DNA of 64,000 nucleotides from the sequence record NZ_CP040051.1; one strand, 5' to 3'. Numbering within the stretch: the stretch's first letter is position 1; the number at the start of each line of letters is the position of its first letter. The DNA is from a plasmid. Shown piece after piece: positions 40,063-63,912 of the stretch. A program made the translations under genes and the position numbers. The notes under the pieces are model-generated. The model did no database searches. It was not told the DNA's origin and saw nothing but the letters and a program-made list of their open reading frames with translations.

Positions 40063-40882
40063 GGCACTGTTGCAAATAGTCGGTGGTGATAAACTTATCA
40101 TCCCCTTTTGCTGATGGAGCTGCACATGAACCCATTCAAAGGCCGGCATTTTCAGCGTGACATCATTCTGTGGGCCGTACGCTGGTACTGCAAATACGGC
40201 ATCAGTTACCGTGAGCTGCAGGAGATGCTGGCTGAACGCGGAGTGAATGTCGATCACTCCACGATTTACCGCTGGGTTCAGCGTTATGCGCCTGAAATGG
40301 AAAAACGGCTGCGCTGGTACTGGCGTAACCCTTCCGATCTTTGCCCGTGGCACATGGATGAAACCTACGTGAAGGTCAATGGCCGCTGGGCGTATCTGTA
40401 CCGGGCCGTCGACAGCCGGGGCCGCACTGTCGATTTTTATCTCTCCTCCCGTCGTAACAGCAAAGCTGCATACCGGTTTCTGGGTAAAATCCTCAACAAC
40501 GTGAAGAAGTGGCAGATCCCGCGATTCATCAACACGGATAAAGCGCCCGCCTATGGTCGCGCGCTTGCTCTGCTCAAACGCGAAGGCCGGTGCCCGTCTG
40601 ACGTTGAACACCGACAGATTAAGTACCGGAACAACGTGATTGAATGCGATCATGGCAAACTGAAACGGATAATCGGCGCCACGCTGGGATTTAAATCCAT
40701 GAAGACGGCTTACGCCACCATCAAAGGTATTGAGGTGATGCGTGCACTACGCAAAGGCCAGGCCTCAGCATTTTATTATGGTGATCCCCTGGGCGAAATG
40801 CGCCTGGTAAGCAGAGTTTTTGAAATGTAAGGCCTTTGAATAAGACAAAAGGCTGCCTCATCGCTAACTTTGCAACAGTGCC
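40063..40882 (+). mobile_element. IS26 (820 bp)
   Basis: 14 bp IRs GGCACTGTTGCAAA. Internal Tnp26 is identical in sequence to the well-known IS26 transposase. Confidence 0.95.
40126..40830 (+). CDS. tnp26: IS26 transposase Tnp26 (234 aa)
   Basis: [106 protein letters not shown]... Confidence 0.95.
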
Positions 40883-41680
40883 TTCTACGGCACGTTTGAA
40901 GGCGCGCTGAAAGGTCTGGTCATACATGTGATGGCGACGCACGACACCGCTCCGTGGATCGGTCGAATGCGTGTGCTGCGCAAAAACCCAGAACCACGGC
41001 CAGGAATGCCCGGCGCGCGGATACTTCCGCTCAAGGGCGTCGGGAAGCGCAACGCCGCTGCGGCCCTCGGCCTGGTCCTTCAGCCACCATGCCCGTGCAC
41101 GCGACAGCTGCTCGCGCAGGCTGGGTGCCAAGCTCTCGGGTAACATCAAGGCCCGATCCTTGGAGCCCTTGCCCTCCCGCACGATGATCGTGCCGTGATC
41201 GAAATCCAGATCCTTGACCCGCAGTTGCAAACCCTCACTGATCCGCATGCCCGTTCCATACAGAAGCTGGGCGAACAAACGATGCTCGCCTTCCAGAAAA
41301 CCGAGGATGCGAACCACTTCATCCGGGGTCAGCACCACCGGCAAGCGCCGCGACGGCCGAGGTCTTCCGATCTCCTGAAGCCAGGGCAGATCCGTGCACA
41401 GCACCTTGCCGTAGAAGAACAGCAAGGCCGCCAATGCCTGACGATGCGTGGAGACCGAAACCTTGCGCTCGTTCGCCAGCCAGGACAGAAATGCCTCGAC
41501 TTCGCTGCTGCCCAAGGTTGCCGGGTGACGCACACCGTGGAAACGGATGAAGGCACGAACCCAGTGGACATAAGCCTGTTCGGTTGGTAAGCTGTAATGC
41601 AAGTAGCGTATGCGCTCACGCAACTGGTCCAGAACCTTGACCGAACGCAGCGGTGGTAACGGCGCAGTGGCGGTTTTCAT
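40883..41680 (-). pseudogene. intI1: class 1 integron integrase intI1, 3'-truncated by IS26
   Basis: [56 protein letters not shown]... is IntI1. Its C-terminal ~70 aa are replaced by IS26 sequence at the 40882 junction. Confidence 0.9.
41565..41593 (+). promoter_or_regulatory. integron cassette promoter, weak PcW variant (TGGACA-17 bp-TAAGCT)
   Basis: Hexamers and 17 bp spacing read directly. P2 is not activated (14 bp spacer between TTGTTA and TACAGT, no GGG insertion). Confidence 0.6.
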
Positions 41681-41754
41681 GGCTTGTTATGACTGTTTTT
41701 TTGTACAGTCTATGCCTCGGGCATCCAAGCAGCAAGCGCGTTACGCCGTGGGTC

Positions 41755-41818
41755 GATGTTTGATGTTATGGAGCAGCAACGATGTTACGCAGCAGGGCAG
41801 TCGCCCTAAAACAAAGTT
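41755..41818 (+). promoter_or_regulatory. attI1 recombination site
   Basis: ...GCAGCAGGGCAGTCGCCCTAAAACAAAGTT followed by the first cassette. Confidence 0.55.
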
Positions 41819-41852
41819 ATGCAGCCAAATCCCAACAATTAAGGGTCTTAAA

Positions 41853-42305
41853 ATGGTAAAAGATTGGATTCCCATCTCTCATGATAATTACAAGCAGGTG
41901 CAAGGACCGTTCTATCATGGAACCAAAGCCAATTTGGCGATTGGTGACTTGCTAACCACAGGGTTCATCTCTCATTTCGAGGACGGTCGTATTCTTAAGC
42001 ACATCTACTTTTCAGCCTTGATGGAGCCAGCAGTTTGGGGAGCTGAACTTGCTATGTCACTGTCTGGCCTCGAGGGTCGCGGCTACATATACATAGTTGA
42101 GCCAACAGGACCGTTCGAAGACGATCCGAATCTTACGAACAAAAAATTTCCCGGTAATCCAACACAGTCCTATAGAACCTGCGAACCCTTGAGAATTGTT
42201 GGCGTTGTTGAAGACTGGGAGGGGCATCCTGTTGAATTAATAAGGGGAATGTTGGATTCGTTAGAGGACTTAAAGCGCCGTGGTTTACACGTCATTGAAG
42301 ACTAG
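41853..42305 (+). CDS. arr-2: rifampin ADP-ribosyltransferase Arr-2 family (gene cassette 1)
   Basis: MVKDWIPISHDNYKQVQGPFYHGTKANLAIGDLLTTGFISHFEDGRILKHIYFSALMEPAVWGAELAMSLSG... 150 aa. The ORF-track entry 41610-42305 is an upstream read-through. Confidence 0.85.
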   Translation: MVKDWIPISHDNYKQVQGPFYHGTKANLAIGDLLTTGFISHFEDGRILKHIYFSALMEPAVWGAELAMSLSGLEGRGYIYIVEPTGPFEDDPNLTNKKFPGNPTQSYRTCEPLRIVGVVEDWEGHPVELIRGMLDSLEDLKRRGLHVIED

Positions 42306-42440
42306 TCCTTTGCATAACAAAGCCATCAAACCGGACGCCAGAGATTCCGCGCCTGTTGCGCATGGCTTCGCCATTTTATGCGCAATAGGCGCGCCACCCT
42401 GTCGCCGTTTATGGCGGCGTTGGGCGCACAATAAGGCTCC
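42306..42440 (+). promoter_or_regulatory. arr-2 attC (59-be), approximate limits
   Basis: Begins with the GCATAAC inverse core just after the stop; imperfect internal inverted repeats. Exact 3' boundary not resolved. Confidence 0.35.
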
Positions 42441-42496
42441 TCGCAGAGTTGCTTGAAAGTTGTTACGATTCAAATTCAATCATGAGATAGTCAGCA

Positions 42497-42526
42497 GATG
42501 AGCACTTCCAAGAACGCAGACAAGTA
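42497..42526 (+). CDS. cmlA translational-attenuation leader peptide (MSTSKNADK)
   Basis: ATGAGCACTTCCAAGAACGCAGACAAGTAA, 9 codons about 100 bp upstream of cmlA. Known chloramphenicol-inducible attenuator. Confidence 0.55.
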
Positions 42527-42625
42527 AGCCGCAGCAACCTTCATTTTTCGGTTGTTGCGGCGTTCTCATGAATCCTTTTGCTCTACGGGAGCGCCGCCAA
42601 ATCCTTTGTTCAAGGAGATGGTTTC

Positions 42626-43885
42626 GTGCGCTCAAAAAACTTTAGTTGGCGGTACTCCCTTGCCGCCACGGTGTTGTTGTTATCACCGTTCGATTTATTG
42701 GCATCACTCGGCATGGACATGTACTTGCCAGCAGTGCCGTTTATGCCAAACGCGCTTGGTACGACAGCGAGCACAATTCAGCTTACGCTGACAACGTACT
42801 TGGTCATGATTGGTGCCGGTCAGCTCTTGTTTGGACCGCTATCGGACCGACTGGGGCGCCGCCCCGTTCTACTGGGAGGTGGCCTCGCCTACGTTGTGGC
42901 GTCAATGGGCCTCGCTCTTACGTCATCGGCTGAAGTCTTTCTGGGGCTTCGGATTCTTCAGGCTTGTGGTGCCTCGGCGTGCCTTGTTTCCACATTTGCA
43001 ACAGTACGTGACATTTACGCAGGTCGCGAGGAAAGTAATGTCATTTACGGCATACTCGGATCCATGCTGGCCATGGTCCCGGCGGTAGGCCCATTGCTCG
43101 GAGCGCTCGTCGACATGTGGCTTGGGTGGCGGGCTATCTTTGCGTTTCTAGGTTTGGGCATGATCGCTGCATCTGCAGCAGCGTGGCGATTCTGGCCTGA
43201 AACCCGGGTGCAACGAGTTGCGGGCTTGCAATGGTCGCAGCTGCTACTCCCCGTTAAGTGCCTGAACTTCTGGTTGTACACGTTGTGTTACGCCGCTGGA
43301 ATGGGTAGCTTCTTCGTCTTTTTCTCCATTGCGCCCGGACTAATGATGGGCAGGCAAGGTGTGTCTCAGCTTGGCTTCAGCCTGCTGTTCGCCACAGTGG
43401 CAATTGCCATGGTGTTTACGGCTCGTTTTATGGGGCGTGTGATACCCAAGTGGGGCAGCCCAAGTGTCTTGCGAATGGGAATGGGATGCCTGATAGCTGG
43501 AGCAGTATTGCTTGCCATCACCGAAATATGGGCTTCGCAGTCCGTGTTAGGCTTTATTGCTCCAATGTGGCTAGTGGGTATTGGTGTCGCCACAGCGGTA
43601 TCTGTGTCGCCCAATGGCGCTCTTCGAGGATTCGACCATGTTGCTGGAACGGTCACGGCAGTCTACTTCTGCTTGGGCGGTGTACTGCTAGGAAGCATCG
43701 GAACGTTGATCATTTCGCTGTTGCCGCGCAACACGGCTTGGCCGGTTGTCGTGTACTGTTTGACCCTTGCAACAGTCGTGCTCGGTCTGTCTTGTGTTTC
43801 CCGAGTGAAGGGCTCTCGCGGCCAGGGGGAGCATGATGTGGTCGCGCTACAAAGTGCGGAAAGTACATCAAATCCCAATCGTTGA
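42626..43885 (+). CDS. cmlA: chloramphenicol efflux MFS transporter CmlA (cmlA1/cmlA5 type; gene cassette 2)
   Basis: (V)RSKNFSWRYSLAATVLLLSPFDLLASLGMDMYLPAVPFMPNALGTTASTIQLTLTTYLVMIGAGQLLFGPLSDRLGRR... 419 aa. GTG start. Confidence 0.9.
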   Translation: MRSKNFSWRYSLAATVLLLSPFDLLASLGMDMYLPAVPFMPNALGTTASTIQLTLTTYLVMIGAGQLLFGPLSDRLGRRPVLLGGGLAYVVASMGLALTSSAEVFLGLRILQACGASACLVSTFATVRDIYAGREESNVIYGILGSMLAMVPAVGPLLGALVDMWLGWRAIFAFLGLGMIAASAAAWRFWPETRVQRVAGLQWSQLLLPVKCLNFWLYTLCYAAGMGSFFVFFSIAPGLMMGRQGVSQLGFSLLFATVAIAMVFTARFMGRVIPKWGSPSVLRMGMGCLIAGAVLLAITEIWASQSVLGFIAPMWLVGIGVATAVSVSPNGALRGFDHVAGTVTAVYFCLGGVLLGSIGTLIISLLPRNTAWPVVVYCLTLATVVLGLSCVSRVKGSRGQGEHDVVALQSAESTSNPNR

Positions 43886-43975
43886 GAGAATGTGGCAAGC
43901 TATCGCCCAACAAATCGCTGCAGCCGACCCAAAACCGCTACGCGGTTTCGGTCGGCTGAGCTCAGGCGTTAGATG
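43886..43975 (+). promoter_or_regulatory. cmlA attC, ending at the GTTAGAT start of the 3'-conserved segment
   Basis: Inverted repeats CGCCCAACAAATCGCTGC...GCGGTTTCGGTCGGC, followed by GTTAGATGCACTAAGCACATAATTGCTCACAGCC (3'-CS). Confidence 0.45.
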
Positions 43976-44076
43976 CACTAAGCACATAATTGCTCACAGC
44001 CAAACTATCAGGTCAAGTCTGCTTTTATTATTTTTAAGCGTGCATAATAAGCCCTACACAAATTGGGAGATATATC

Positions 44077-44424
44077 ATGAAAGGCTGGCTTTTTCTTGTT
44101 ATCGCAATAGTTGGCGAAGTAATCGCAACATCCGCATTAAAATCTAGCGAGGGCTTTACTAAGCTTGCCCCTTCCGCCGTTGTCATAATCGGTTATGGCA
44201 TCGCATTTTATTTTCTTTCTCTGGTTCTGAAATCCATCCCTGTCGGTGTTGCTTATGCAGTCTGGTCGGGACTCGGCGTCGTCATAATTACAGCCATTGC
44301 CTGGTTGCTTCATGGGCAAAAGCTTGATGCGTGGGGCTTTGTAGGTATGGGGCTCATAATTGCTGCCTTTTTGCTCGCCCGATCCCCATCGTGGAAGTCG
44401 CTGCGGAGGCCGACGCCATGGTGA
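44077..44424 (+). CDS. qacEdelta1: quaternary-ammonium-compound efflux SMR protein QacEdelta1
   Basis: [115 protein letters not shown], 115 aa. Confidence 0.95.
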
Positions 44425-45257
44425 CGGTGTTCGGCATTCTGAATCTCACCGAGGACTCCTTCTTCGATGAGAGCCGGCGGCTAGACCCCGCCGGCGCTGT
44501 CACCGCGGCGATCGAAATGCTGCGAGTCGGATCAGACGTCGTGGATGTCGGACCGGCCGCCAGCCATCCGGACGCGAGGCCTGTATCGCCGGCCGATGAG
44601 ATCAGACGTATTGCGCCGCTCTTAGACGCCCTGTCCGATCAGATGCACCGTGTTTCAATCGACAGCTTCCAACCGGAAACCCAGCGCTATGCGCTCAAGC
44701 GCGGCGTGGGCTACCTGAACGATATCCAAGGATTTCCTGACCCTGCGCTCTATCCCGATATTGCTGAGGCGGACTGCAGGCTGGTGGTTATGCACTCAGC
44801 GCAGCGGGATGGCATCGCCACCCGCACCGGTCACCTTCGACCCGAAGACGCGCTCGACGAGATTGTGCGGTTCTTCGAGGCGCGGGTTTCCGCCTTGCGA
44901 CGGAGCGGGGTCGCTGCCGACCGGCTCATCCTCGATCCGGGGATGGGATTTTTCTTGAGCCCCGCACCGGAAACATCGCTGCACGTGCTGTCGAACCTTC
45001 AAAAGCTGAAGTCGGCGTTGGGGCTTCCGCTATTGGTCTCGGTGTCGCGGAAATCCTTCTTGGGCGCCACCGTTGGCCTTCCTGTAAAGGATCTGGGTCC
45101 AGCGAGCCTTGCGGCGGAACTTCACGCGATCGGCAATGGCGCTGACTACGTCCGCACCCACGCGCCTGGAGATCTGCGAAGCGCAATCACCTTCTCGGAA
45201 ACCCTCGCGAAATTTCGCAGTCGCGACGCCAGAGACCGAGGGTTAGATCATGCCTAG
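44417..45257 (+). CDS. sul1: sulfonamide-resistant dihydropteroate synthase Sul1
   Basis: [72 protein letters not shown]... 279 aa. Overlaps the qacEdelta1 end. Confidence 0.95.
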
Positions 45258-45660
45258 CATTCACCTTTCCGCCGCCCGCTAAATATCTCCTTTTGGGTTG
45301 TTAATAAAACATCCAATAAGTTGACTGTGCGTGAAAAAGAAAGTTTTGTGTGATGGCGTTGAAGATCGCACCGTTAAGCTCTTATGTGGGATGGTGCAGA
45401 GCTCGACGACTACCGATAAAACGCAACCGCCGCAAACAGACAAGAAAAAGCCCCAACTGATAACAGTTGGGGCTTCAGTATTGTGATTGGTGGAGCAATA
45501 GCACCCTGAACCAAAAACCTTCTCGCTCAACGGTAGTGGCTGATAACAACTCGTGAGGGCTATTGCGGGTTAAGCATTTAGCGATGTCTAGGGCCAGACT
45601 GGACGTCTGAACGCAAGCCGCTGATACTGTACATAACCACAGTATCAGCGGAGGATACCC

Positions 45661-47202
45661 ATGTCGCTGGCAAGGAACGCCACGGCGAGTCAATCGCCCA
45701 CTCAAACAAACGGTTACGAACGCCACCAACCCGACCAGACGCTGCTCTACCAGCTGGTTGAGCAGCACTACCCAGCCTTCAAAGCCTCACTCGAAGCCCA
45801 AGGTCAACACCTGCCTCGCTACATCCAACAAGAATTCAACGACCTCCTCCAATGTGGCCGTCTGGAGTATGGTTTCATGCGGGTTCGCTGCGAGGATTGT
45901 CATCACGAGCGTCTGGTCGCCTTCAGCTGTAAACGACGCGGCTTTTGCCCTAGCTGCGGTGCCCGCCGGATGGCCGAGAGTGCGGCGCTGCTGATAGACG
46001 AAGTCTTCCCCAAGGAGCCCATTCGCCAGTGGGTGCTCAGCTTTCCTTTCCAGCTACGCTTTTTGCTGGCTCGCCATCCCCAGCTGATGGGCCAGGTCTT
46101 GAGTATCGTCTATCGTACACTCTCAACTCATCTGATCAAAAAAGCCGGTTACACCAAAGCCTCTGCACAAACTGGCTCAGTGACTCTTATCCAACGCTTT
46201 GGCTCCGCGCTAAATCTCAATGTCCACTACCACATGCTGTTTCTCGATGGTGTCTATGCCGAAGATGACTATGGCAAGCAACGCTTCCATCGTGTCAAGG
46301 CACCCACTTACGATGAGCTGAATACGCTCGCTCACACCCTCAGCCATCGCATCGCTCGCTGCATGGAAAAGCGTGGGATTTTGGAGCGTGATGCCGAGAA
46401 TACGTGGTTGACACTGGAAGAGGGCGAAGACGATACGCTGACTCAATTACATGGTGCTTCGGTTACGTATCGCATTGCCGTCGGCCCCCAGCAAGGGCGC
46501 AAAGTCTTCACCCTGCAAACCTTGCCAGGGCGTGAGGATAAAGCCGACTCAAGCAGTCGAGTAGCCAACCATGCTGGTTTCTCGCTACACGCCGGTGTGA
46601 TGGCCGAAGCGCATCAGCGGGATAAGCTTGAGCGCTTGTGTCGCTACATTAGTCGGCCAGCGGTTTCAGAAAAACGTCTGGCATTAACCGCCAATGGGCA
46701 GGTGCGTTACGAGCTCAAAACTCCGTACCGCAATGGCACCACCCATGTGATCTTCGAGCCGCTGGACTTCATCGCCAAACTCGCTGCGTTGGTACCTAAG
46801 CCGCGAGTCAACCTCACACGCTTCCACGGCGTCTTTGCACCGAACAGCAAACACCGAGTTCAAGTAACACCCGCCAAGCGGGGCAAGAAGCCCGACAAAT
46901 CGGAAGGTCTCGATACTAACTGGCGTGACAAGAGTCCTGCAGAGCGCCACCGCGCCATGACCTGGATGCAACGCCTCAAGCGAGTCTTCAATATTGATAT
47001 TGAAGTCTGCGAACACTGCGGCGGTCACGTCAAAGTGATTGCCAGCATCGAAGATCCGAAGGTCATTGAGCAGATTCTCAAGCATCTGAAACAGAAAACA
47101 GCCAAGGCGAATGCCGCCAAGCAGCGTGAGCTGCCACCAGAACGAGCGCCGCCACTGACTCCCAGCCTGTTCGATCCATCACAGAGTCGTCTCTTTGACT
47201 GA
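45661..47202 (+). CDS. ISCR1 (orf513) IS91-family transposase, 513 aa, copy 1
   Basis: 513 aa IS91-like protein directly downstream of the sul1 3'-CS, as in complex class 1 integrons. About 65% identical to the ISCR2 protein at 28877. Confidence 0.85.
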   Translation: MSLARNATASQSPTQTNGYERHQPDQTLLYQLVEQHYPAFKASLEAQGQHLPRYIQQEFNDLLQCGRLEYGFMRVRCEDCHHERLVAFSCKRRGFCPSCGARRMAESAALLIDEVFPKEPIRQWVLSFPFQLRFLLARHPQLMGQVLSIVYRTLSTHLIKKAGYTKASAQTGSVTLIQRFGSALNLNVHYHMLFLDGVYAEDDYGKQRFHRVKAPTYDELNTLAHTLSHRIARCMEKRGILERDAENTWLTLEEGEDDTLTQLHGASVTYRIAVGPQQGRKVFTLQTLPGREDKADSSSRVANHAGFSLHAGVMAEAHQRDKLERLCRYISRPAVSEKRLALTANGQVRYELKTPYRNGTTHVIFEPLDFIAKLAALVPKPRVNLTRFHGVFAPNSKHRVQVTPAKRGKKPDKSEGLDTNWRDKSPAERHRAMTWMQRLKRVFNIDIEVCEHCGGHVKVIASIEDPKVIEQILKHLKQKTAKANAAKQRELPPERAPPLTPSLFDPSQSRLFD

Positions 47203-47420
47203 CGACCCCAAATCCAACACTGCTCAACACTGCCAACTTTTAAACGGGGCGGTGGGGCAGTTTGTATCTCTCGAGCTATCAGGCTAGAGATTTTACCGCC
47301 AAATCGAACCTTATTAGAGCGGTTTAGGCTGGACCGGCAGTTAAAATTGGGGCTTGAGCGGTAAACGAGTGAGGGAATTTCAGGTAAGATACTTCGGATG
47401 AGGAGCAAAAAGGTGGTTTA

Positions 47421-47456
47421 TACTTCCTATACCCTTTATACTTCCTATACCCTTTA
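47421..47456 (+). repeat. tandem duplication (2 x 18 bp, TACTTCCTATACCCTTTA) at the ISCR1 oriIS-proximal end
   Basis: Two exact adjacent 18-mers. The second ISCR1 copy (53356-53374) has a single unit. Confidence 0.6.
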
Positions 47457-49140: not shown

Positions 49141-50148
49141 TTATTCCACACCAATAAAGCCGCCGGTTTGATGCGCCCATAATTGAGCGTAAATACCGCC
49201 TTTGGCGATCAGTTCCTGATGACTGCCTTGTTCCACAATACGACCTTGATCCAGAACGATCAGCCTGTCCATAGCTGCTATGGTAGATAAACGGTGTGCA
49301 ATGGCTATAACCGTTTTGCCTATCATCAACTGAGTCAGACTATGCTGAATAGCCGATTCTACTTCGGAGTCCAGCGCTGAGGTAGCTTCATCCAGAATCA
49401 GAATAGGGGCGTTTTTCAGTAAAACCCGAGCTATTGCAATACGTTGACGTTGACCACCAGAAAGCTTGACTCCACGTTCGCCCACCTGAGCGTCGTAGCC
49501 ACTGTTGCCTTTAGGATCGGTAAGCTCCTGAATAAAAGCATCGGCTTCGGCTAAACGGGCTGCTTCAATCATTTCCGCTTCGGTAGCGCCAGGACGACCA
49601 TATAAAATATTTTCCCTTACAGTACGGTGTAGCAGGGAGGTATCCTGGGTCACCATAGCTATATGAGCGCGAAGACTTTCCTGGGATACGGTTTTAATGT
49701 CCTGACCGTCTATCAAAATCTGGCCTGAATTGACATCATAAAAGCGCAGCAGTAAGTTCACCAGCGTGGATTTACCAGCACCAGAACGGCCGACTAAACC
49801 TACTTTTTCACCGGGTTTAATCGACAAGTCCAAACCATCAATCACAGGACCATGTTCACCTGCTGCTTTGCCGTAGTTAAAGTTCAGTTGCTTAAACTCA
49901 ATCTGACCTTGTGGCACTTCAAGCGGCTTCGCATCAGCTTTGTCGATGATTTGCTGAGGCTGAGACAAAGTCGCAATACCATCTGCCACAGTACCTATGT
50001 TTTCAAACAGTGCACTGACTTCCCACATGATCCACTGCGACATACCATTTAAACGCAGCGCCAGACTGACTGCGATGGCAATAGAGCCCACAGTGACGGC
50101 ATTGACAGACCAAAGCCATATCGCCAGCGTGGCAATAGAGAACACTGG
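49141..50148 (-). pseudogene. abct: ABC transporter (ATPase domain plus part of the permease), 5'-truncated: abct remnant
   Basis: Walker A GRSGAGKST, signature LSGGQRQR, Walker B ILILDEATSALD. The N-terminal membrane domain is cut at the junction with the qacEdelta1 fragment at about 50146. Confidence 0.7.
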
Positions 50149-50374
50149 CATCGCATTTTATTTTCTTTCTCTGGTTCTGAAATCCATCCCTGTCGGTGTT
50201 GCTTATGCAGTCTGGTCGGGACTCGGCGTCGTCATAATTACAGCCATTGCCTGGTTGCTTCATGGGCAAAAGCTTGATGCGTGGGGCTTTGTAGGTATGG
50301 GGCTCATAATTGCTGCCTTTTTGCTCGCCCGATCCCCATCGTGGAAGTCGCTGCGGAGGCCGACGCCATGGTGA
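50146..50374 (+). pseudogene. qacEdelta1: qacEdelta1 3' fragment (second, truncated copy)
   Basis: Identical to 44196-44424 from ...[12 protein letters not shown] onward. Confidence 0.75.
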
Positions 50375-51201
50375 CGGTGTTCGGCATTCTGAATCTCACC
50401 GAGGACTCCTTCTTCGATGAGAGCCGGCGGCTAGACCCCGCCGGCGCTGTCACCGCGGCGATCGAAATGCTGCGAGTCGGATCAGACGTCGTGGATGTCG
50501 GACCGCCGCCAGCCATCGGACGCGAGGCCTGTATCGCCGCCGATGAGATCAGACGTATTGCGCCGCTCTTAGACGCCCTGTCCGATCAGATGCACCGTGT
50601 TTCAATCGACAGCTTCCAACCGAAACCCAGCGCTATGCGCTCAAGCGCGGCGTGGGCTACCTGAACGATATCCAAGGATTTCCTGACCCTGCGCTCTATC
50701 CCGATATTGCTGAGGCGGACTGCAGGCTGGTGGTTATGCACTCAGCGCAGCGGGATGGCATCGCCACCCGCACCGTCACCTTCGACCCGAAGACGCGCTC
50801 GACGAGATTGTGCGGTTCTTCGAGGCGCGGGTTTCCGCCTTGCGACGGAGCGGGGTCGCTGCCGACCGCTCATCCTCGATCCGGGGATGGGATTTTTCTT
50901 GAGCCCCGCACCGGAAACATCGCTGCACGTGCTGTCGAACCTTCAAAAGCTGAAGTCGGCGTTGGGGCTTCCGCTATTGGTCTCGGTGTCGCGGAAATCC
51001 TTCTTGGGCGCCACCGTTGGCCTTCCTGTAAAGGATCTGGGTCCAGCGAGCCTTGCGGCGGAACTTCACGCGATCGGCAATGGCGCTGACTACGTCCGCA
51101 CCCACGCGCCTGGAGATCTGCGAAGCGCAATCACCTTCTCGGAAACCCTCGCGAAATTTCGCAGTCGCGACGCCAGAGACCGAGGGTTAGATCATGCCTA
51201 G
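50367..51201 (+). pseudogene. sul1: sul1 second copy carrying six 1 bp deletions (apparent frameshifts), all inside CCGG sites
   Basis: Aligned to 44417-45257. The differences are single-base losses at about 50504, 50516, 50537, 50620, 50774 and 50867, each converting CCGG to CCG or CGG. Confidence 0.75.
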
Positions 51202-51605
51202 CATTCACCTTCCGGCCGCCCGCTAAATATCTCCTTTTGGGTTGTTAATAAAACATCCAATAAGTTGACTGTGCGTGAAAAAGAAAGTTTTGTGTGATGG
51301 CGTTGAAGATCGCACCGTTAAGCTCTTATGTGGGATGGTGCAGAGCTCGACGACTACCGATAAAACGCAACCGCCGCAAACAGACAAGAAAAAGCCCCAA
51401 CTGATAACAGTTGGGGCTTCAGTATTGTGATTGGTGGAGCAATAGCACCCTGAACCAAAAACCTTCTCGCTCAACCGGTAGTGGCTGATAACAACTCGTG
51501 AGGGCTATTGCGGGTTAAGCATTTAGCGATGTCTAGGGCCAGACTGGACGTCTGAACGCAAGCCGCTGATACTGTACATAACCACAGTATCAGCGGAGGA
51601 TACCC

Positions 51606-53148
51606 ATGTCGCTGGCAAGGAACGCCACGGCGAGTCAATCGCCCACTCAAACAAACGGTTACGAACGCCACCAACCCGACCAGACGCTGCTCTACCAGCT
51701 GGTTGAGCAGCACTACCCAGCCTTCAAAGCCTCACTCGAAGCCCAAGGTCAACACCTGCCTCGCTACATCCAACAAGAATTCAACGACCTCCTCCAATGT
51801 GGCCGTCTGGAGTATGGTTTCATGCGGGTTCGCTGCGAGGATTGTCATCACGAGCGTCTGGTCGCCTTCAGCTGTAAACGACGCGGCTTTTGCCCCTAGC
51901 TGCGGTGCCCGCCGGATGGCCGAGAGTGCGGCGCTGCTGATAGACGAAGTCTTCCCCAAGGAGCCCATTCGCCAGTGGGTGCTCAGCTTTCCTTTCCAGC
52001 TACGCTTTTTGCTGGCTCGCCATCCCCAGCTGATGGGCCAGGTCTTGAGTATCGTCTATCGTACACTCTCAACTCATCTGATCAAAAAAGCCGGTTACAC
52101 CAAAGCCTCTGCACAAACTGGCTCAGTGACTCTTATCCAACGCTTTGGCTCCGCGCTAAATCTCAATGTCCACTACCACATGCTGTTTCTCGATGGTGTC
52201 TATGCCGAAGATGACTATGGCAAGCAACGCTTCCATCGTGTCAAGGCACCCACTTACGATGAGCTGAATACGCTCGCTCACACCCTCAGCCATCGCATCG
52301 CTCGCTGCATGGAAAAGCGTGGGATTTTGGAGCGTGATGCCGAGAATACGTGGTTGACACTGGAAGAGGGCGAAGACGATACGCTGACTCAATTACATGG
52401 TGCTTCGGTTACGTATCGCATTGCCGTCGGCCCCCAGCAAGGGCGCAAAGTCTTCACCCTGCAAACCTTGCCAGGGCGTGAGGATAAAGCCGACTCAAGC
52501 AGTCGAGTAGCCAACCATGCTGGTTTCTCGCTACACGCCGGTGTGATGGCCGAAGCGCATCAGCGGGATAAGCTTGAGCGCTTGTGTCGCTACATTAGTC
52601 GGCCAGCGGTTTCAGAAAAACGTCTGGCATTAACCGCCAATGGGCAGGTGCGTTACGAGCTCAAAACTCCGTACCGCAATGGCACCACCCATGTGATCTT
52701 CGAGCCGCTGGACTTCATCGCCAAACTCGCTGCGTTGGTACCTAAGCCGCGAGTCAACCTCACACGCTTCCACGGCGTCTTTGCACCGAACAGCAAACAC
52801 CGAGTTCAAGTAACACCCGCCAAGCGGGGCAAGAAGCCCGACAAATCGGAAGGTCTCGATACTAACTGGCGTGACAAGAGTCCTGCAGAGCGCCACCGCG
52901 CCATGACCTGGATGCAACGCCTCAAGCGAGTCTTCAATATTGATATTGAAGTCTGCGAACACTGCGGCGGTCACGTCAAAGTGATTGCCAGCATCGAAGA
53001 TCCGAAGGTCATTGAGCAGATTCTCAAGCATCTGAAACAGAAAACAGCCAAGGCGAATGCCGCCAAGCAGCGTGAGCTGCCACCAGAACGAGCGCCGCCA
53101 CTGACTCCCAGCCTGTTCGATCCATCACAGAGTCGTCTCTTTGACTGA
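51606..53148 (+). pseudogene. ISCR1 transposase, copy 2, with a 1 bp insertion (C4 vs C3 at 51894-51897) splitting the ORF
   Basis: Otherwise identical to 45661-47202. ORF track shows the 51606-51899 and 51703-53148 pieces. Confidence 0.7.
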
Positions 53149-53384
53149 CGACCCCAAATCCAACACTGCTCAACACTGCCAACTTTTAAACGGGGCGGTG
53201 GGGCAGTTTGTATCTCTCGAGCTATCAGGCTAGAGATTTTACCGCCAAATCGAACCTTATTAGAGCGGTTTAGGCTGGACCGGCAGTTAAAATTGGGGCT
53301 TGAGCGGTAAACGAGTGAGGGAATTTCAGGTAAGATACTTCGGATGAGGAGCAAAAAGGTGGTTTATACTTCCTATACCCCTGG

Positions 53385-57372: not shown

Positions 57373-58557
57373 ATGCTCACCATGAATGTAAAAGCTATGC
57401 TCGCTGATTTCCTCACCTTTGTCACGCCAAAATCAATGCATAAAGCCCGATTTTCGGTTTTGCTAGATGCGGTAACCGCCCTGGCAAAGGATGCGTGTTG
57501 CACCGTTACTGCGATTGGCCGGGCGATGCCTGGCTCTTCAGATAAGGTCAGTATCAAACGGGCAGATCGTCTACTCAATAATCCTAACCTGCAACGAGAG
57601 CTGCCATTGATTTATGCTGCGCTGACGGCTTCTATTGTTGGCCATAAAACTAAGCCGATGATTTTGGTTGACTGGAGCAATGCCGATACTGCCAAGCGAC
57701 ACTTTATCCTGCGTGCCAGCATTGCCGCTGACGGTAGAGCGTTGACTCTGCTACAGAAGATTGCCGCCGCAGAAGATTATACCTGCCCACACCTACACGG
57801 GGCGTTTTTAAAGCAGCTTAAAGCCATGCTACCCAAGGACTGTAAGCCCGTAATTGTCACTGACGCGGGGTTTAAAGTTCCATGGCTGAAACAAGTGCGT
57901 AAGCTGGGATGGCATTATGTAGCTAGAGTTCGAGGCAATGTGAAGCTTAAATTGGCAGAGCAGGACAAGTTTATCAGTGTTAATCAGCTTTATCGGCAAG
58001 CGAAGAAGGATCCAAAAAGTGTAGGAAAAATCATGCTTGCCCAAACACAACACTATGAAACGCAGGCCGTCCTGGTTGGCAAAGGTTATAAGCTATTGAA
58101 ACGCGATAAAAATAAGACGTATAAGGAACCATGGTTGTTGGTGTCATCCTTAGCTGACTGCCATGGGTATGCGGATAAAATTGCTAAGTGCTACAGTAGC
58201 CGAATGCAAATTGAAGAAAGCTTCCGTGATCAGAAAAGTCACCGCTATGGCCTGGGTAGCGATTTGCATGGTACCAAGAAGAAATCTCGCTTAGAGATAC
58301 TGCTACTACTGGCCGCATTGGTTAATTGGTTTCATTACCTGCTAGGTAGCGCAGCGGAGAAAGCGGGTTTGCACCTGCGTTATCAAGCTAACACCGTTAA
58401 AAATAGGCGGGTATTGGCCCTGAATTTCCTTGGGATATTACTTTGCAAAGAACCCAAACAGCGAATACGCAGGCAATATTATCAGCAGGGACTTAAACAA
58501 ATACTACAGTGGGTGGTTCAGTGGGACTGGGCAGTAATCAAACAGGCTGATAGCTGA
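57373..58557 (+). CDS. IS4-family transposase (ISEc29-like, the tnpD position of Tn1548)
   Basis: 394 aa; paralogous to 54422-55642 (shared ...ILRASIA..DGR.LTL..K.....VIVTDAGFKVPW... and IEESFRDQK). Confidence 0.6.
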   Translation: MLTMNVKAMLADFLTFVTPKSMHKARFSVLLDAVTALAKDACCTVTAIGRAMPGSSDKVSIKRADRLLNNPNLQRELPLIYAALTASIVGHKTKPMILVDWSNADTAKRHFILRASIAADGRALTLLQKIAAAEDYTCPHLHGAFLKQLKAMLPKDCKPVIVTDAGFKVPWLKQVRKLGWHYVARVRGNVKLKLAEQDKFISVNQLYRQAKKDPKSVGKIMLAQTQHYETQAVLVGKGYKLLKRDKNKTYKEPWLLVSSLADCHGYADKIAKCYSSRMQIEESFRDQKSHRYGLGSDLHGTKKKSRLEILLLLAALVNWFHYLLGSAAEKAGLHLRYQANTVKNRRVLALNFLGILLCKEPKQRIRRQYYQQGLKQILQWVVQWDWAVIKQADS

Positions 58558-58955
58558 TTGTATGAATGGAAATTTTGTGGGGATCCCTCAGGTTGTCTAG
58601 ACTTCTTTTAACAGTAAAGTTATCATAAAACTGAATTTTATTTTTTAGGTAAGTTTATGCATTCTATCCGCATTCGTTAAGACACAACTATTTGCATAGT
58701 GACACTATTTTATAATGGTGGGCTTTTGTTGTGTCTTTAAGAATATATGCGGATATATAAAGTAAAAGTATGCTTAATTTATAAGTATGCTTTTAGTGCA
58801 TAGTTTCCAGTTATAACTTAATTGACTAGCTATTTGTCCACCCTGTGGATGAATAGCTTTTTTTTTGGGAGGACACTGTGATGCTAGCTTTTGTTTTCAC
58901 CTAAATCCTGTTTGCTGCATAAAAAATTTCAAGAGCTAAACAGGAGTAAATAAAA

Positions 58956-60431
58956 ATGAGTTTAATTATTAAAGCGAGAAACATACGCTTGGATTATGCT
59001 GGGCGTGATGTTTTGGATATTGATGAATTGGAAATTCACTCTTATGACCGTATTGGTCTTGTGGGTGATAACGGAGCAGGAAAGAGTAGTTTACTCAAAG
59101 TACTTAATGGCGAAATTGTTTTAGCCGAAGCGACATTACAGCGTTTTGGTGATTTTGCACATATCAGCCAACTGGGCGGAATCGAAATAGAAACGGTCGA
59201 AGACCGGGCAATGTTATCTCGCCTTGGTGTTTCCAATGTACAAAACGACACAATGAGTGGCGGAGAGGAAACTCGTGCAAAAATTGCTGCCGCATTTTCC
59301 CAACAAGTACATGGCATTCTAGCGGATGAACCAACCAGCCACCTTGATCTCAATGGAATAGATCTACTTATTGGTCAACTTAAAGCATTTGATGGAGCAT
59401 TACTTGTTATCAGTCATGACCGATATTTTCTTGATATGGTTGTAGACAAGATATGGGAGTTAAAAGACGGTAAAATTACGGAATATTGGGGTGGTTACTC
59501 GGATTACTTGCGTCAAAAAGAAGAAGAGCGACAACACCAAGCCGTAGAATATGAGCTGATGATGAAGGAACGGGAGCGATTAGAATCTGCTGTGCAAGAA
59601 AAACGCCAGCAAGCTAATCGATTAGACAATAAGAAAAAAGGAGAAAAATCCAAAAACTCTACCGAAAGTGCTGGACGACTTGGGCATGCAAAAATGACTG
59701 GCACCAAGCAAAGAAAACTGTATCAGGCAGCTAAGAGTATGGAAAAGCGTTTGGCTGCATTAGAAGATATTCAAGCACCAGAGCATTTGCGTTCTATTCG
59801 TTTTCGTCAAAGTTCAGCCCTAGAACTGCACAATAAGTTCCCGATTACGGCAGATGGTCTGAGCTTAAAATTTGGTAGCCGTACTATCTTTGATGACGCT
59901 AACTTTATAATACCGCTTGGCGCTAAAGTCGCTATAACTGGATCGAATGGAACAGGGAAAACGTCCTTGTTAAAAATGATATCAGAACGTGCTGATGGAT
60001 TAACCATATCTCCAAAAGCTGAAATTGGCTACTTTACACAAACAGGATATAAATTTAACACGCATAAATCTGTGCTCTCCTTTATGCAGGAAGAGTGCGA
60101 GTACACAGTTGCGGAAATTCGTGCAGTATTGGCTTCAATGGGGATCGGAGCGAATGATATTCAAAAAAACTTATCCGACTTATCGGGAGGTGAAATCATC
60201 AAACTGCTTTTATCCAAAATGCTTTTAGGAAAATATAATATTTTGCTTATGGATGAACCAGGAAACTATCTTGACCTAAAAAGTATTGCCGCATTAGAAA
60301 CAATGATGAAGTCCTATGCAGGAACTATTATCTTCGTATCTCATGACAAGCAATTGGTCGATAATATTGCTGACATTATCTACGAGATCAAAGACCACAA
60401 AATCATCAAGACTTTTGAGAGAGATTGTTAA
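58956..60431 (+). CDS. msr(E): ABC-F ribosomal protection protein Msr(E) (macrolide resistance)
   Basis: 491 aa with two ABC domains (GDNGAGKSS; LSGGE) and an inter-domain linker. N-terminus [54 protein letters not shown]... Confidence 0.95.
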
Positions 60432-60486
60432 TGATAGCCAATCTAATCCGAACATTAATTATTGAACTCTTTAAAGGAAATTAAAA

Positions 60487-61371
60487 ATGACAATTCAAGA
60501 TATTCAATCACTTGCTGAAGCACACGGCTTGTTGCTTACGGACAAAATGAATTTCAATGAAATGGGCATTGATTTTAAGGTCGTTTTTGCTCTTGATACA
60601 AAGGGGCAACAATGGTTGCTGCGTATTCCTCGTCGTGATGGCATGAGGGAACAAATCAAGAAAGAAAAACGCATTTTAGAATTGGTAAAAAAACATCTTT
60701 CTGTAGAGGTTCCTGATTGGAGAATTTCATCTACAGAATTAGTGGCTTATCCCATACTTAAAGATAATCCTGTTTTAAATTTGGATGCTGAAACCTATGA
60801 AATAATTTGGAATATGGACAAAGATAGCCCGAAATACATAACATCTTTGGCAAAAACCTTATTTGAAATCCATAGTATTCCTGAAAAAGAAGTTCGGGAA
60901 AATGATTTGAAAATTATGAAACCTTCAGATTTAAGACCTGAAATAGCAAACAATTTGCAGTTAGTAAAATCTGAAATTGGTATAAGTGAGCAATTGGAAA
61001 CCCGCTACAGAAAATGGTTGGATAATGATGTTCTATGGGCAGATTTCACCCAATTTATACATGGCGATTTATATGCTGGGCATGTACTAGCTTCAAAGGA
61101 TGGAGCTGTTTCAGGCGTTATTGATTGGTCAACAGCCCATATAGATGACCCAGCGATTGATTTTGCTGGGCATGTAACTTTGTTTGGAGAAGAAAGCCTC
61201 AAAACTCTAATCATCGAGTATGAAAAACTAGGGGGTAAAGTTTGGAATAAACTATATGAACAGACTTTAGAAAGAGCAGCGGCCTCTCCTTTGATGTATG
61301 GTTTATTTGCCTTAGAAACTCAAAATGAAAGCCTTATCGTTGGAGCAAAAGCTCAGTTGGGAGTTATATAA
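60487..61371 (+). CDS. mph(E): macrolide 2'-phosphotransferase Mph(E)
   Basis: 294 aa, MTIQDIQSLAEAHGLLLTDKMNFNEMGIDFKVVFALDTKGQQWLLRIPRRDGMREQIKKEKRILELVKKHL... APH-fold HGD motif (FIHGDLYAGHVL). Confidence 0.95.
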   Translation: MTIQDIQSLAEAHGLLLTDKMNFNEMGIDFKVVFALDTKGQQWLLRIPRRDGMREQIKKEKRILELVKKHLSVEVPDWRISSTELVAYPILKDNPVLNLDAETYEIIWNMDKDSPKYITSLAKTLFEIHSIPEKEVRENDLKIMKPSDLRPEIANNLQLVKSEIGISEQLETRYRKWLDNDVLWADFTQFIHGDLYAGHVLASKDGAVSGVIDWSTAHIDDPAIDFAGHVTLFGEESLKTLIIEYEKLGGKVWNKLYEQTLERAAASPLMYGLFALETQNESLIVGAKAQLGVI

Positions 61372-61729
61372 TTTAAAAATATGATTGCTGAGAACTGCCT
61401 TGTTTTGAAACTTGGTTGGCTTTAATTAGTTTTTAGTATTCTTTATAGAAAATGCCTCGATCAAGGGGCATTTCTAACAATCATTTAACATAAAATTTCT
61501 TATACGAAATGCTTGATATTTCTCTTTAAATATCATTATATTAACGTAAGCCGTTCTGGAGTATAGGGCACCAGAACGGCTTTTTATTGATTATTCATGT
61601 TCCACGATCACTAATTGAGCGATGTTCCACGGTTTTATTCAGTTTTAATAAACATCATCCGGTTTTTTGAGGAGTCATTATTTCAAGTGCTTGCACTGAA
61701 ATTGGCTCTTCAAAAAACTGGAGTCTTGG

Positions 61730-62272
61730 CTAACCATATGGAAGGAAAAAGCGGCTTAGGAAGCCTCTCTTCTTCTGTTCTGGTTCAACATGCTCCGGGA
61801 TAGGAATACGCTTATTGTCTTGCTGAGGAGTAGTCAATTCGTCATAGTTCGTTGCTAGTTCCGACCGAGGATCCGTTGCTATATCCTGTTTAAAGCTCTG
61901 ATCGGTAAAGGTAGTCATATTGGCTTTTGGTGCTTCTAGTAAGCGCTGCATAGCTTCAATCTGTTCTTGATAAAACGATTCACGTTCTAAAGATTGATTT
62001 TCTCTCTGTATTGCCTGATTTAATTGTTTTTCCAGTATGTCAACTTGACGTTTTAGTAAGTCAACTTCTGTCAAGTTTTGACTGTTAATTGATTGACTTT
62101 GATTGACTGTATCCTCTTTTTTTTGTGGTTCCCCAAAAACTCTTAGGGCCTCTGAAAAGTCAATTAATCCATCAGATCCTTTAGATAAATTTCCTTTGTT
62201 TATATGTGCATATATGGCTTGTCTTGAATATCCATAAAGCTTAGCTAACTCTGAAACTGACAGTTTTTTCAT
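61730..62272 (-). CDS. HTH DNA-binding protein (180 aa) associated with the Rep_3 replicon
   Basis: N-terminal MKKLSVSELAKLYGYSRQAIYAHINKGNL HTH, then a coiled coil. Located between mph(E) and repAciN, as in AbGRI3-type islands. Confidence 0.45.
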   Translation of the reverse strand: MKKLSVSELAKLYGYSRQAIYAHINKGNLSKGSDGLIDFSEALRVFGEPQKKEDTVNQSQSINSQNLTEVDLLKRQVDILEKQLNQAIQRENQSLERESFYQEQIEAMQRLLEAPKANMTTFTDQSFKQDIATDPRSELATNYDELTTPQQDNKRIPIPEHVEPEQKKRGFLSRFFLPYG

Positions 62273-62338
62273 TATGTAAACCAGTTTTCAACTTGTGTTA
62301 ATACCTGACTGTTAACTTAACAATTTCAATTAACAATG

Positions 62339-63093
62339 TCATTGAAATCCTAATTTTCTGAGTAAAGGAAGTAATTCCTTAAATTTCTCTGCATCTTGCA
62401 GCATGGCAGCTATACGTACAGCAAACTGCTGATAGCTTTCTGTGCCTTGTGAATATTTACTCATCTCAGGAAGCTCTGAGAGCTTGTTGGCGAATAGATG
62501 GCGTTGTTTATCTGTTATTTTTGAAAAGAGGTCTAATGTATTCGGATCTCTTTTAGATTCGACTGAATGCGTGGCTGATTTTTTCTGTTTAAAGCTAAAT
62601 GAAAAACCAGTAATAGATCTACCTGTTTTATGCTGTTCAACTTTGACAATAATATCGGTATGTTCATTTACTTGTTTTAATGCAATGTCTAAAACATATT
62701 TTTTAAAATCATACATTCGTTTGTATTCAGTCTCGAGTACACCTATTTTTTGTCTAAAATCATACATAGTTATGAGAGGCGTTTTTCCAGTACTACGCCA
62801 TGCAATCAATATTTCATATAAACGAACAGCATAAGCACTTGTTAAATTACTTATTTGTTGTATTTCATACTTTGTAAATTGTTCTTCTAACCTAGTAATT
62901 AAAGGCACAATAGCAGGGGCAAAAATAAGTCTAACGACAGCTTCATTATCAATATAAGCCACCTCGCTCACCCATCTTGATTTGTGATTAATAGTGTTAC
63001 CTTTTTCACTAAGACTCTGATAACTGAATTGTCTTGCAAACAAGTCATCGCAAGCATCTTTTAACGCCTGATAAGCCGTATTTCGATGTACAC
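62339..63093 (-). pseudogene. repAciN: Rep_3-family plasmid replication initiator (repAciN-like), 5'-truncated by IS26
   Basis: Rep_3-like body. The first 20 codons of the track ORF ([20 protein letters not shown]) derive from the IS26 end; the identical read-through is seen at 39953-40135. Confidence 0.6.
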
Positions 63094-63912
63094 GGCACTG
63101 TTGCAAATAGTCGGTGGTGATAAACTTATCATCCCCTTTTGCTGATGGAGCTGCACATGAACCCATTCAAAGGCCGGCATTTTCAGCGTGACATCATTCT
63201 GTGGGCCGTACGCTGGTACTGCAAATACGGCATCAGTTACCGTGAGCTGCAGGAGATGCTGGCTGAACGCGGAGTGAATGTCGATCACTCCACGATTTAC
63301 CGCTGGGTTCAGCGTTATGCGCCTGAAATGGAAAAACGGCTGCGCTGGTACTGGCGTAACCCTTCCGATCTTTGCCCGTGGCACATGGATGAAACCTACG
63401 TGAAGGTCAATGGCCGCTGGGCGTATCTGTACCGGGCCGTCGACAGCCGGGGCCGCACTGTCGATTTTTATCTCTCCTCCCGTCGTAACAGCAAAGCTGC
63501 ATACCGGTTTCTGGGTAAAATCCTCAACAACGTGAAGAAGTGGCAGATCCCGCGATTCATCAACACGGATAAAGCGCCCGCCTATGGTCGCGCGCTTGCT
63601 CTGCTCAAACGCGAAGGCGGTGCCCGTCTGACGTTGAACACCGACAGATTAAGTACCGGAACAACGTGATTGAATGCGATCATGGCAAACTGAAACGGAT
63701 AATCGGCGCCACGCTGGGATTTAAATCCATGAAGACGGCTTACGCCACCATCAAAGGTATTGAGGTGATGCGTGCACTACGCAAAGGCCAGGCCTCAGCA
63801 TTTTATTATGGTGATCCCCTGGGCGAAATGCGCCTGGTAAGCAGAGTTTTTGAAATGTAAGGCCTTTGAATAAGACAAAAGGCTGCCTCATCGCTAACTT
63901 TGCAACAGTGCC
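63094..63912 (+). mobile_element. IS26 copy 2 (819 bp; 1 bp shorter than copy 1)
   Basis: Same IRs. Differs from copy 1 by loss of one base at a CCGG site (about 63618), which splits tnp26 into the 63139-63669 and 63666-63860 ORFs. Confidence 0.9.

What the first reader, a model, noticed from the sequence alone, without database searches (positions are those of the whole stretch)
40063..63912. Paired repeat copies differ almost only by 1 bp indels inside CCGG
There are three internal duplications: qacEdelta1-sul1-ISCR1 (44196-47440 vs 50146-53375), and IS26 copy 1 vs copy 2. The second sul1 has six single-base deletions, each inside a CCGG (about 50504, 50516, 50537, 50620, 50774, 50867). The sul1/ISCR1 spacer shows a CCGG rearranged at 51205-51213, and copy 1 lacks a base of a CCGG at about 45527. 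IS26 copy 2 lacks one base of a CCGG at about 63618. The only non-CCGG difference is a C-homopolymer +1 at 51894-51897. Independent natural mutations would not concentrate on one tetranucleotide. This is the signature of modification-dependent basecalling or consensus error at a methylated CCGG, as with m5C or m4C in long-read assemblies. Two consequences follow. First, the sul1, ISCR1 and tnp26 pseudogenes in the second copies are probably artefacts. Second, single-copy GC-rich genes here may hide the same error, and the host probably has a CCGG-specific DNA methyltransferase (M.HpaII/M.MspI-like) encoded elsewhere.
Basis: seen in the sequence. Interest (0 to 1): 0.7.

Follow-up and report, generated by a model that had tools for sequence, protein, structure and literature searches.

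The report
CCGG sequencing errors left in repeats
The one-base gaps at CCGG that break the second copies of sul1 and IS26 on this Acinetobacter resistance plasmid are almost certainly assembly errors that survived only inside repeated DNA, not real mutations.

Summary
The two 3.24-kb qacEdelta1(part)-sul1-ISCR1 copies (44196-47434, 50146-53380) and the two IS26 copies (40063-40882, 63094-63912) differ at only 10 places. Nine of these remove one base from a CCGG.

The window is a pAB04-1/pD46-4-type Acinetobacter baumannii plasmid, 99.94-99.99% identical to public records. In every case the references, and at least 5000 public plasmid records for each stretch searched, carry the intact CCGG.

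- All errors lie in repeats: 9 of 44 repeat CCGG sites are wrong, against 0 of 117 single-copy sites (Fisher p = 4e-6).
- Each error is in only one copy. This is the known failure of short-read polishing in repeats, where reads align to the error-free copy.

So the worry about hidden errors in single-copy genes is not borne out in this window.

CCGG specificity is strong. No errors occur in 24 homopolymers of 5 or more bases, or in 94 GGCC/GCGC/CGCG sites. That fits a methylated motif, and 5mC at CCGG is reported in A. baumannii. It remains unproven, because the same IS26 deletion recurs in unrelated assemblies and no methyltransferase lies in the window.

The ISCR1 frameshift comes from a C-run, not a CCGG. 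Verdict: an artefact of low biological interest.

The parts
40063..40882 (+). IS26 copy c, 820 bp, canonical. tnp26 at 40126-40830 is intact (234 aa).
   Evidence: It is 100% identical to IS26 in pAB04-1.
44196..47434 (+). Repeat copy A: the 3' part of qacEdelta1, sul1 (44418-45257, intact) and ISCR1 (45661-47202, intact). It has two CCGG errors in the sul1-ISCR1 spacer.
45266..45274 (+). TTTCCGCCG where all references have TTCCGGCCG. The G of the CCGG is lost and the neighbouring T run has gained one base.
   Evidence: One search found no PLSDB record with this form.
45527..45531 (+). CAACGG where the references have CAACCGG. One C of a CCGG is lost.
50146..53380 (+). Repeat copy B: the 3' part of qacEdelta1, a broken sul1 (50368-51201) and a broken ISCR1 (51606-53148).
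50504..50868 (+). A run of six consecutive CCGG sites in sul1 B, each missing one base (50504/5, 50516/7, 50538/9, 50621/2, 50774/5, 50867/8). The first frameshift is at codon 46.
   Evidence: One search found none of at least 5000 sul1 records with these deletions.
51893..51896 (+). C4 run where copy A and the references have C3. This, not a CCGG, frameshifts ISCR1 B at codon 97.
63094..63912 (+). IS26 copy d, 819 bp. One C of GGCCGGTG is lost at 63617. tnp26 (63157-63860) stops prematurely after 170 aa.
   Evidence: The same deletion recurs in other assemblies.
10659..11477 (-). IS1008, 819 bp. The transposase is split into two ORFs by an A6-to-A5 change at about 11059-11064. This is another indel in a multicopy element, and it is not at a CCGG.

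Best explanation
The differences are assembly errors.

The record was most likely built from long reads and then polished with short reads. This is inferred. The long-read consensus dropped one base at many CCGG sites. Short-read polishing repaired all such errors in single-copy DNA. Inside the 3.2-kb sul1-ISCR1 duplication and the IS26 copies, short reads align to whichever copy is already correct. The faulty copy is then left uncovered and uncorrected. That is why every surviving error sits in only one copy of a repeat, in runs of neighbouring sites.

The restriction to CCGG is most simply explained by cytosine methylation of CCGG in the host disturbing base calling. This step is inferred, not shown.

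The real plasmid carries two intact sul1 genes, two intact ISCR1 and intact IS26, as in pAB04-1.
For: Shown:
- The window is 99.94-99.99% identical to pAB04-1 (CP012007), CP040260 and pD46-4. Between 28740 and 63912 its only differences from pAB04-1, apart from one SNP and an alignment edge, lie inside the repeats. Nine of them each remove a base from a CCGG.
- Repeat versus single-copy: 9 of 44 repeat CCGG sites are wrong against 0 of 117 single-copy sites, Fisher p = 4.4e-6.
- Each error is in one copy only and the partner copy equals the reference. The errors form runs: sites 3-8 in copy B and sites 11-12 in copy A.
- These variants are private to this assembly. At least 5000 sul1 records lack the six deletions and none of the at least 5000 records matching that stretch has the copy-A spacer changes.
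- Motif specificity: 9 of 44 CCGG sites are wrong, against 0 of 24 homopolymers of 5 or more bases, 0 of 108 of 4 or more, and 0 of 94 GGCC/GCGC/CGCG sites. Nine of 11 events fall in 2.2% of the bases, P about 6e-14.
- A further indel in a multicopy element, IS1008 A6 to A5, fits errors persisting in repeats.

From the literature:
- Reads prefer the error-free repeat copy, so polishers cannot fix the other copy (Polypolish paper, PMC8812927).
- About 70% of nanopore consensus errors in K. pneumoniae fell in the 5mC Dcm motif (PMC6591954).
- 5mC at (WN)CCGG is detected in several A. baumannii strains and on the related plasmid pA297-3 (PMC13227989).
Against: - No reads and no record metadata are available, so the sequencing platform and the polishing history are inferred.
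- Methylation is not demonstrated. No cytosine methyltransferase is encoded in the window.
- The error sites do not fit the published WNCCGG form better than the intact sites do. Five of nine fit on one strand.
- Modification-linked nanopore errors described for recent chemistries are mostly mismatches, not deletions (PMC10687267).
- The identical IS26 deletion occurs in at least 8 other assemblies from varied contexts, Enterobacterales plasmids among them. The GCCGGC deletion in sul1 occurs in two Enterobacter plasmids. At least some of these sites are therefore generic weak spots.
- Several interior CCGG sites of the repeats are correct in both copies, so the pre-polish error rate was not 100%.
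Confidence: 0.9

Rival explanations
1. The same artefact, confined to repeats by failed polishing, but with no role for methylation. CCGG, and especially CCGGCC or GGCCGG, would be an intrinsically hard context for the base caller or consensus tool used. Because the motif is a palindrome, the error hits both strands and is not outvoted.
For: - The identical IS26 position-525 deletion occurs in at least 8 unrelated public assemblies. These include E. coli and K. pneumoniae plasmids, and the deletion often sits beside ordinary homopolymer indels.
- The sul1 GCCGGC deletion occurs in two Enterobacter hormaechei plasmids.
- CP035931 has an insertion at the same IS26 CCGG.
- Four of the nine error sites are CCGGCC or GGCCGG.
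Against: - Other G+C palindromes (GGCC, GCGC, CGCG; 94 sites) and homopolymers of 4 or more bases (108 sites) carry no errors here.
- Among thousands of public long-read or hybrid records of sul1 and IS26, such deletions are very rare. That points to something particular to this sample.
- Sibling A. baumannii assemblies of the same region show homopolymer errors, not CCGG errors.
Confidence: 0.3
2. The deletions are real. The redundant second copies of sul1 and IS26 have decayed through mutations aimed at CCGG, for example through damage or repair linked to a CCGG methyltransferase or restriction enzyme, or through selection to lose restriction sites in dispensable copies.
For: - The changes fall only in duplicated, and therefore dispensable, DNA.
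- The six sul1-B deletions sum to a multiple of three, so the original stop codon is back in frame.
Against: - Nine independent CCGG deletions sit in about 8 kb of repeats. The 48 kb of single-copy DNA differs from relatives by only a few bases.
- None of the sul1-region changes is shared with any relative or any of at least 5000 records.
- The errors are split between the copies (B, then A). Two of them lie in a non-coding spacer, and all 117 single-copy CCGG sites are untouched.
- From general knowledge, methylcytosine mutagenesis gives C-to-T transitions, not 1-bp deletions.
- Recombination between copies this close to identical would also erase such differences.
Confidence: 0.03
3. The errors come from the short-read or flow-based platform itself, for example Ion Torrent under-calling CC or GG two-base runs, or from a long-read-only consensus whose depth drops inside repeats. 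On this reading they do not come from a motif-specific long-read error.
For: - Each error is the loss of one base from a two-base run.
- Related Indian A. baumannii assemblies of this region are visibly noisy with run-length errors.
Against: - Run-length error models predict more errors in longer runs. Here 0 of 24 runs of 5 or more bases and 0 of 108 runs of 4 or more are wrong, against 9 of 44 CCGG sites.
- GGCC, which also consists of two two-base runs, has no errors in its 24 occurrences across the two sul1-ISCR1 copies.
Confidence: 0.05

Closest known systems
Residual errors in repeats after short-read polishing of long-read assemblies (Wick & Holt 2022, Polypolish, PMC8812927)
   Same: The errors are confined to repeated sequence. 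Each is present in one copy while the other copy is correct. Single-copy DNA is clean, and the result is false frameshifts.
   Different: The paper describes mostly homopolymer-length errors. Here nine of the ten between-copy differences are at one tetranucleotide. Read depth over the errors could not be inspected.
Methylation-motif consensus errors in nanopore assemblies, such as Dcm CCWGG in Enterobacteriaceae (Wick et al. 2019, PMC6591954)
   Same: Errors pile up on one short motif that carries 5-methylcytosine, far beyond homopolymer errors. An example of CCTGG read as CC-GG is visible in plasmid CP034755.
   Different: The motif here is CCGG and the host is Acinetobacter. Methylation of this strain is not shown. 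Recent reports of modification-linked errors describe mainly mismatches.
5mC at (WN)CCGG in A. baumannii strains and on plasmid pA297-3 (PMC13227989, 2026)
   Same: The species, the plasmid family and the core motif are the same.
   Different: That paper reports methylation calls, not assembly errors. The responsible enzyme is not named, and the strain of this window is unknown.
pAB04-1 (CP012007) resistance region: IS26 - arr-2 - cmlA5 - qacEdelta1 - sul1 - ISCR1 - blaPER-7 - sul1 - ISCR1 - armA - msr(E) - mph(E) - IS26
   Same: Gene order matches across 42479-63912, and sequence is 99.94% identical over that stretch.
   Different: pAB04-1 has an extra IS26, with the arr-2 segment inverted, between the left IS26 and cmlA5. 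In sequence, the aligned stretch differs only by the errors described here and one base at 45513.

Membership tests
Residual repeat errors after short-read polishing | Errors occur in repeated sequence and not in single-copy sequence. | tested here: met
   9 of 44 repeat CCGG sites are wrong against 0 of 117 single-copy sites, p = 4.4e-6. The IS1008 indel also lies in a multicopy element.
Residual repeat errors after short-read polishing | At each error, the other copy of the repeat is error-free. | tested here: met
   At all nine CCGG sites and at the C-run, only one copy is wrong and the partner equals pAB04-1.
Residual repeat errors after short-read polishing | Short-read depth drops to about zero over the error, and the assembly was long-read-first hybrid. 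| not testable with these tools
   No reads or record metadata are available. The source record was not found.
Methylation-motif base-calling or consensus error | Errors are concentrated on one short sequence motif, beyond homopolymer and composition effects. | tested here: met
   Nine of 11 events fall in CCGG, P about 6e-14. There are no errors in 94 GGCC/GCGC/CGCG sites or in 108 runs of 4 or more bases.
Methylation-motif base-calling or consensus error | The variants are absent from independent sequences of the same DNA. | tested here: met
   pAB04-1 has intact CCGG at all nine sites; CP040260 and pVB82_1 have it at the eight sites in the sul1-ISCR1 repeat. None of at least 5000 records shares the sul1 or spacer changes.
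Methylation-motif base-calling or consensus error | The host methylates the motif, through an enzyme that is present or a modification signal in reads. | not testable with these tools
   No C5 or N4/N6 catalytic motif is found in any window ORF, only a truncated 222-aa N6_Mtase fragment. The literature shows 5mC CCGG in other A. baumannii strains.
Methylation-motif base-calling or consensus error | The error is specific to hosts that carry the modification. | tested here: inconclusive
   Such deletions are very rare among public sul1 and IS26 records. However, the IS26 deletion and one sul1 deletion recur in other assemblies, some from Enterobacterales, whose methylation is unknown.
Genuine pseudogenes (real mutational decay) | The mutations are inherited, shared with relatives or otherwise supported by independent sequence. 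| tested here: not met
   They are private to this assembly.
Genuine pseudogenes (real mutational decay) | The mutation spectrum and density are in line with the rest of the molecule. | tested here: not met
   There are 10 indel-type changes in about 8 kb of repeats. The roughly 48 kb of single-copy DNA shows only a few substitutions and no CCGG change.

The most novel reading that the evidence does not exclude
The one-base CCGG deletions are real and reflect a process that damages CCGG specifically in duplicated DNA. One example would be error-prone repair after nicking by a CCGG-specific enzyme, tolerated only in redundant copies.
Probability: 0.02. Interest if true: 0.75.

Novelty: not a real feature. 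Interest (0 to 1): 0.1.

Why it matters
The value is for data quality, not biology. A gene-calling pipeline would report this plasmid as carrying one broken sul1, one broken ISCR1, one broken IS26 transposase and one broken IS1008 transposase. All of these are probably intact in the real plasmid.

The case also shows a practical check. Comparing the copies of a repeat within a single assembly can expose both incomplete polishing and a motif-specific long-read error, and so hint at a host methylation motif, without any reads.

The resistance region itself is already known from pAB04-1 and related plasmids.

Tried and rejected
- **Finding the source record, to learn the platform.** An exact search of species-representative genomes for a 32-mer carrying two of the deletions gave no hit. 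Look-ups of the artefactual sul1 and ISCR1 fragments found nothing on record. The 97-aa ISCR1 fragment matched only genes cut off at contig ends, which is uninformative. The truncated tnp26 product led to other assemblies, not this one.
- **Looking for a methyltransferase in the window.** Six-frame scans for the C5 catalytic motif PCQxFS and for (S/D/N)PP(Y/F/W/H) found none. The annotated N-6 DNA methylase is a 222-aa fragment with only a weak N6_Mtase match.
- **Looking for an extended motif that separates faulty from intact CCGG sites.** None was found. WNCCGG fits 5 of 9 faulty sites and also fits intact ones.
- **Asking whether the other two elements with IS26-like ends were extra IS26 copies with deletions.** They are IS1007/IS1008-type elements.
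- **Checking sibling A. baumannii assemblies for the same CCGG pattern.** pVB82_1 and pPM194122_1 are clean. CP035931 and CP040260 show homopolymer-type errors instead.


Full report
**What is there**

The window holds two near-identical direct repeats.
- One is a 3.24-kb unit holding the 3' part of qacEdelta1, then sul1, a spacer and ISCR1. It lies at 44196-47434 (copy A, 3239 bp) and 50146-53380 (copy B, 3235 bp).
- The other is IS26, at 40063-40882 (copy c, 820 bp) and 63094-63912 (copy d, 819 bp).
- A whole-window scan found no other near-identical repeats.
- Two more elements with the same terminal sequence, at 7055-7872 and 10659-11477, are diverged IS1007/IS1008-type elements, not IS26.

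Copies A and B differ at nine places:
- Six one-base deletions in B at 50504-50868, each inside a CCGG.
- One one-base deletion in A at 45530, inside a CCGG.
- TTTCCGCCG in A (45266-45274) against TTCCGGCCG in B.
- C3 in A against C4 in B (51893-51896).

IS26 d differs from IS26 c by one lost C in GGCCGGTG at 63617. The exceptions are the repeat ends, and the fact that the rearranged spacer CCGG is in copy A, not copy B. CCGG covers 2.2% of the repeat bases but holds 9 of the 11 events counted against the references: the ten between-copy differences plus a base at 45513 that is the same in both window copies. P is about 6e-14.

**Which version is true**

The window is a large Acinetobacter baumannii plasmid of the pAB04-1 / pD46-4 / pA297-3 kind.
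- It is 99.94% identical to pAB04-1 (CP012007) over 42479-63912 and 99.96% over 28740-40882.
- It is 99.94-99.99% identical to CP040260 over 7873-62929.
- It is 99.98% identical to pD46-4 over 7867-26000.

At every one of the nine CCGG places the references carry the intact CCGG, and at the C-run they carry C3. Among at least 5000 public plasmid records with sul1, none has the six copy-B deletions. None has the two copy-A spacer changes either. The variants are private to this assembly.

**Effect on genes**

- sul1 A (44418-45257) is identical to the reference gene.
- sul1 B (50368-51201) is frameshifted from codon 46.
- ISCR1 A (45661-47202) is intact, because its two CCGG errors lie upstream in the spacer.
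- ISCR1 B (51606-53148) is broken at codon 97 by the C4 run, not by a CCGG.
- tnp26 c is intact.
- tnp26 d stops after 170 residues.

**The new point: errors are confined to repeats, one copy at a time**

Between 7867 and 63912 the window has 117 single-copy CCGG sites, and all of them match an independent reference. In the repeats, 9 of 44 are wrong (Fisher p = 4.4e-6). In the first 7.8 kb only a 96%-identical reference exists. There are no CCGG indels there, and the three long genes are intact.

Each error is present in only one copy, and the errors come in runs. These are the third to eighth CCGG sites of copy B and the eleventh and twelfth of copy A. This is the situation described for short-read polishing: if one copy of a repeat has an error and the other does not, reads align to the clean copy and nothing covers the error (PMC8812927).

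A further indel in a multicopy element fits the same picture. IS1008 has A6 changed to A5 at about 11059-11064, which splits its transposase.

I therefore infer a long-read-first assembly polished with short reads. The platform and pipeline are not shown by anything available here.

**Why CCGG**

Within the repeats, 9 of 44 CCGG sites are wrong. The comparison sites are:
- 0 of 24 homopolymers of five or more bases.
- 0 of 108 homopolymers of four or more bases.
- 1 of 386 homopolymers of three or more bases.
- 0 of 94 GGCC, GCGC or CGCG sites.

Ordinary run-length error would hit long runs first, so the effect is specific to the motif.

The known precedent is nanopore consensus error piling up in the 5-methylcytosine Dcm motif, which accounted for about 70% of errors in K. 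pneumoniae (PMC6591954). A 2026 study reports 5mC at WNCCGG/CCGG in several A. baumannii strains and on pA297-3, a relative of this plasmid (PMC13227989).

It is not proven, for five reasons:
- The window encodes no cytosine methyltransferase.
- Faulty and intact sites share no distinguishing flank.
- Recently described modification-linked errors are mainly mismatches (PMC10687267).
- The very same IS26 deletion appears in at least eight unrelated assemblies, E. coli and K. pneumoniae plasmids among them.
- The sul1 GCCGGC deletion appears in two Enterobacter plasmids.

A plain context weakness at CCGG, especially at CCGGCC or GGCCGG, remains a live rival.

**Real mutation is very unlikely**

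- Nine independent one-base deletions at one tetranucleotide sit in about 8 kb, on a plasmid whose 48 kb of single-copy DNA differs from relatives by a handful of bases.
- The changes are split between the two copies, and two lie in a non-coding spacer.
- None of the sul1-region changes is shared with any relative.
- From general knowledge, methylcytosine mutagenesis gives C-to-T changes, not deletions.

**Comparison with what is known**

The biology is already described. The segment 42479-63912 has the same gene order as the pAB04-1 resistance region: cmlA5, qacEdelta1, sul1, ISCR1, blaPER-7, sul1, ISCR1, armA, msr(E), mph(E), IS26. pAB04-1 differs structurally upstream, where it has an extra IS26 and the arr-2 segment inverted. 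The finding itself belongs with two known kinds of assembly artefact: residual errors in repeats and motif-specific consensus errors.

**Verdict**

The finding is not a real feature of the plasmid and has low biological interest. It is useful as a caution about the false pseudogenes. It is also an indirect hint that the host may methylate CCGG.

Noticed in passing
window 108-6489 (+): This is the tail of a BREX defence locus. A GmrSD-family type IV restriction enzyme (108-1799, BrxU-like in position) is followed by PglZ (1796-4420) and BrxL (4450-6489). An enzyme of this family attacks modified cytosines. Its coexistence with a host that may methylate CCGG would be worth a look.
   Followed up: partly
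window 10659-11477 (-), indel at about 11059-11064: The IS1008 transposase is split into two 118-aa ORFs by an A5 run where pD46-4 and CP040260 have A6. This is probably another unpolished error in a multicopy element.
   Followed up: yes
window 45513: Both copies of the sul1-ISCR1 spacer have A here (CCAAAAACC). pAB04-1 and CP040260 have C in copy 1 and A in copy 2, and pVB82_1 has C in both. This is either gene conversion or one copy having been polished with reads from the other.
   Followed up: partly
window 31243, within sul2 at 30935-31750 (-): A single base difference from both references gives Sul2 R170C. It is not at a CCGG. Whether it is real or an error is unknown.
   Followed up: partly
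window 34886-35554 (-): A 222-aa ORF annotated in relatives as N-6 DNA methylase has only a weak match to the start of the N6_Mtase profile and has no NPPY-type catalytic motif. It looks like a truncated or non-catalytic fragment.
   Followed up: partly
L011 19575-20393; L017-L021 (IS26 copies); L007 (CP035931) IS26: IS26 position 525 (GGCCGGTG) carries the same one-base deletion in at least eight other public assemblies, and a 3-base insertion in CP035931. It is a recurrent weak spot that produces false tnp26 pseudogenes in databases.
   Followed up: yes
L004 (AP025834) and L005 (CP034755), sul1: Two Enterobacter hormaechei plasmids share the one-base deletion in GCCGGCC of sul1 (equivalent to window 44591). 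L005 also reads CCTGG as CC-GG, a Dcm-motif error.
   Followed up: yes
L002/L003 (CP040260), equivalents of window 29659-60, 34887, 46015, 46489-98 and 52919-20: The closest full-length relative itself carries several small indels, in ISCR1 and elsewhere, that pAB04-1 and the window lack. It is not a clean reference.
   Followed up: partly
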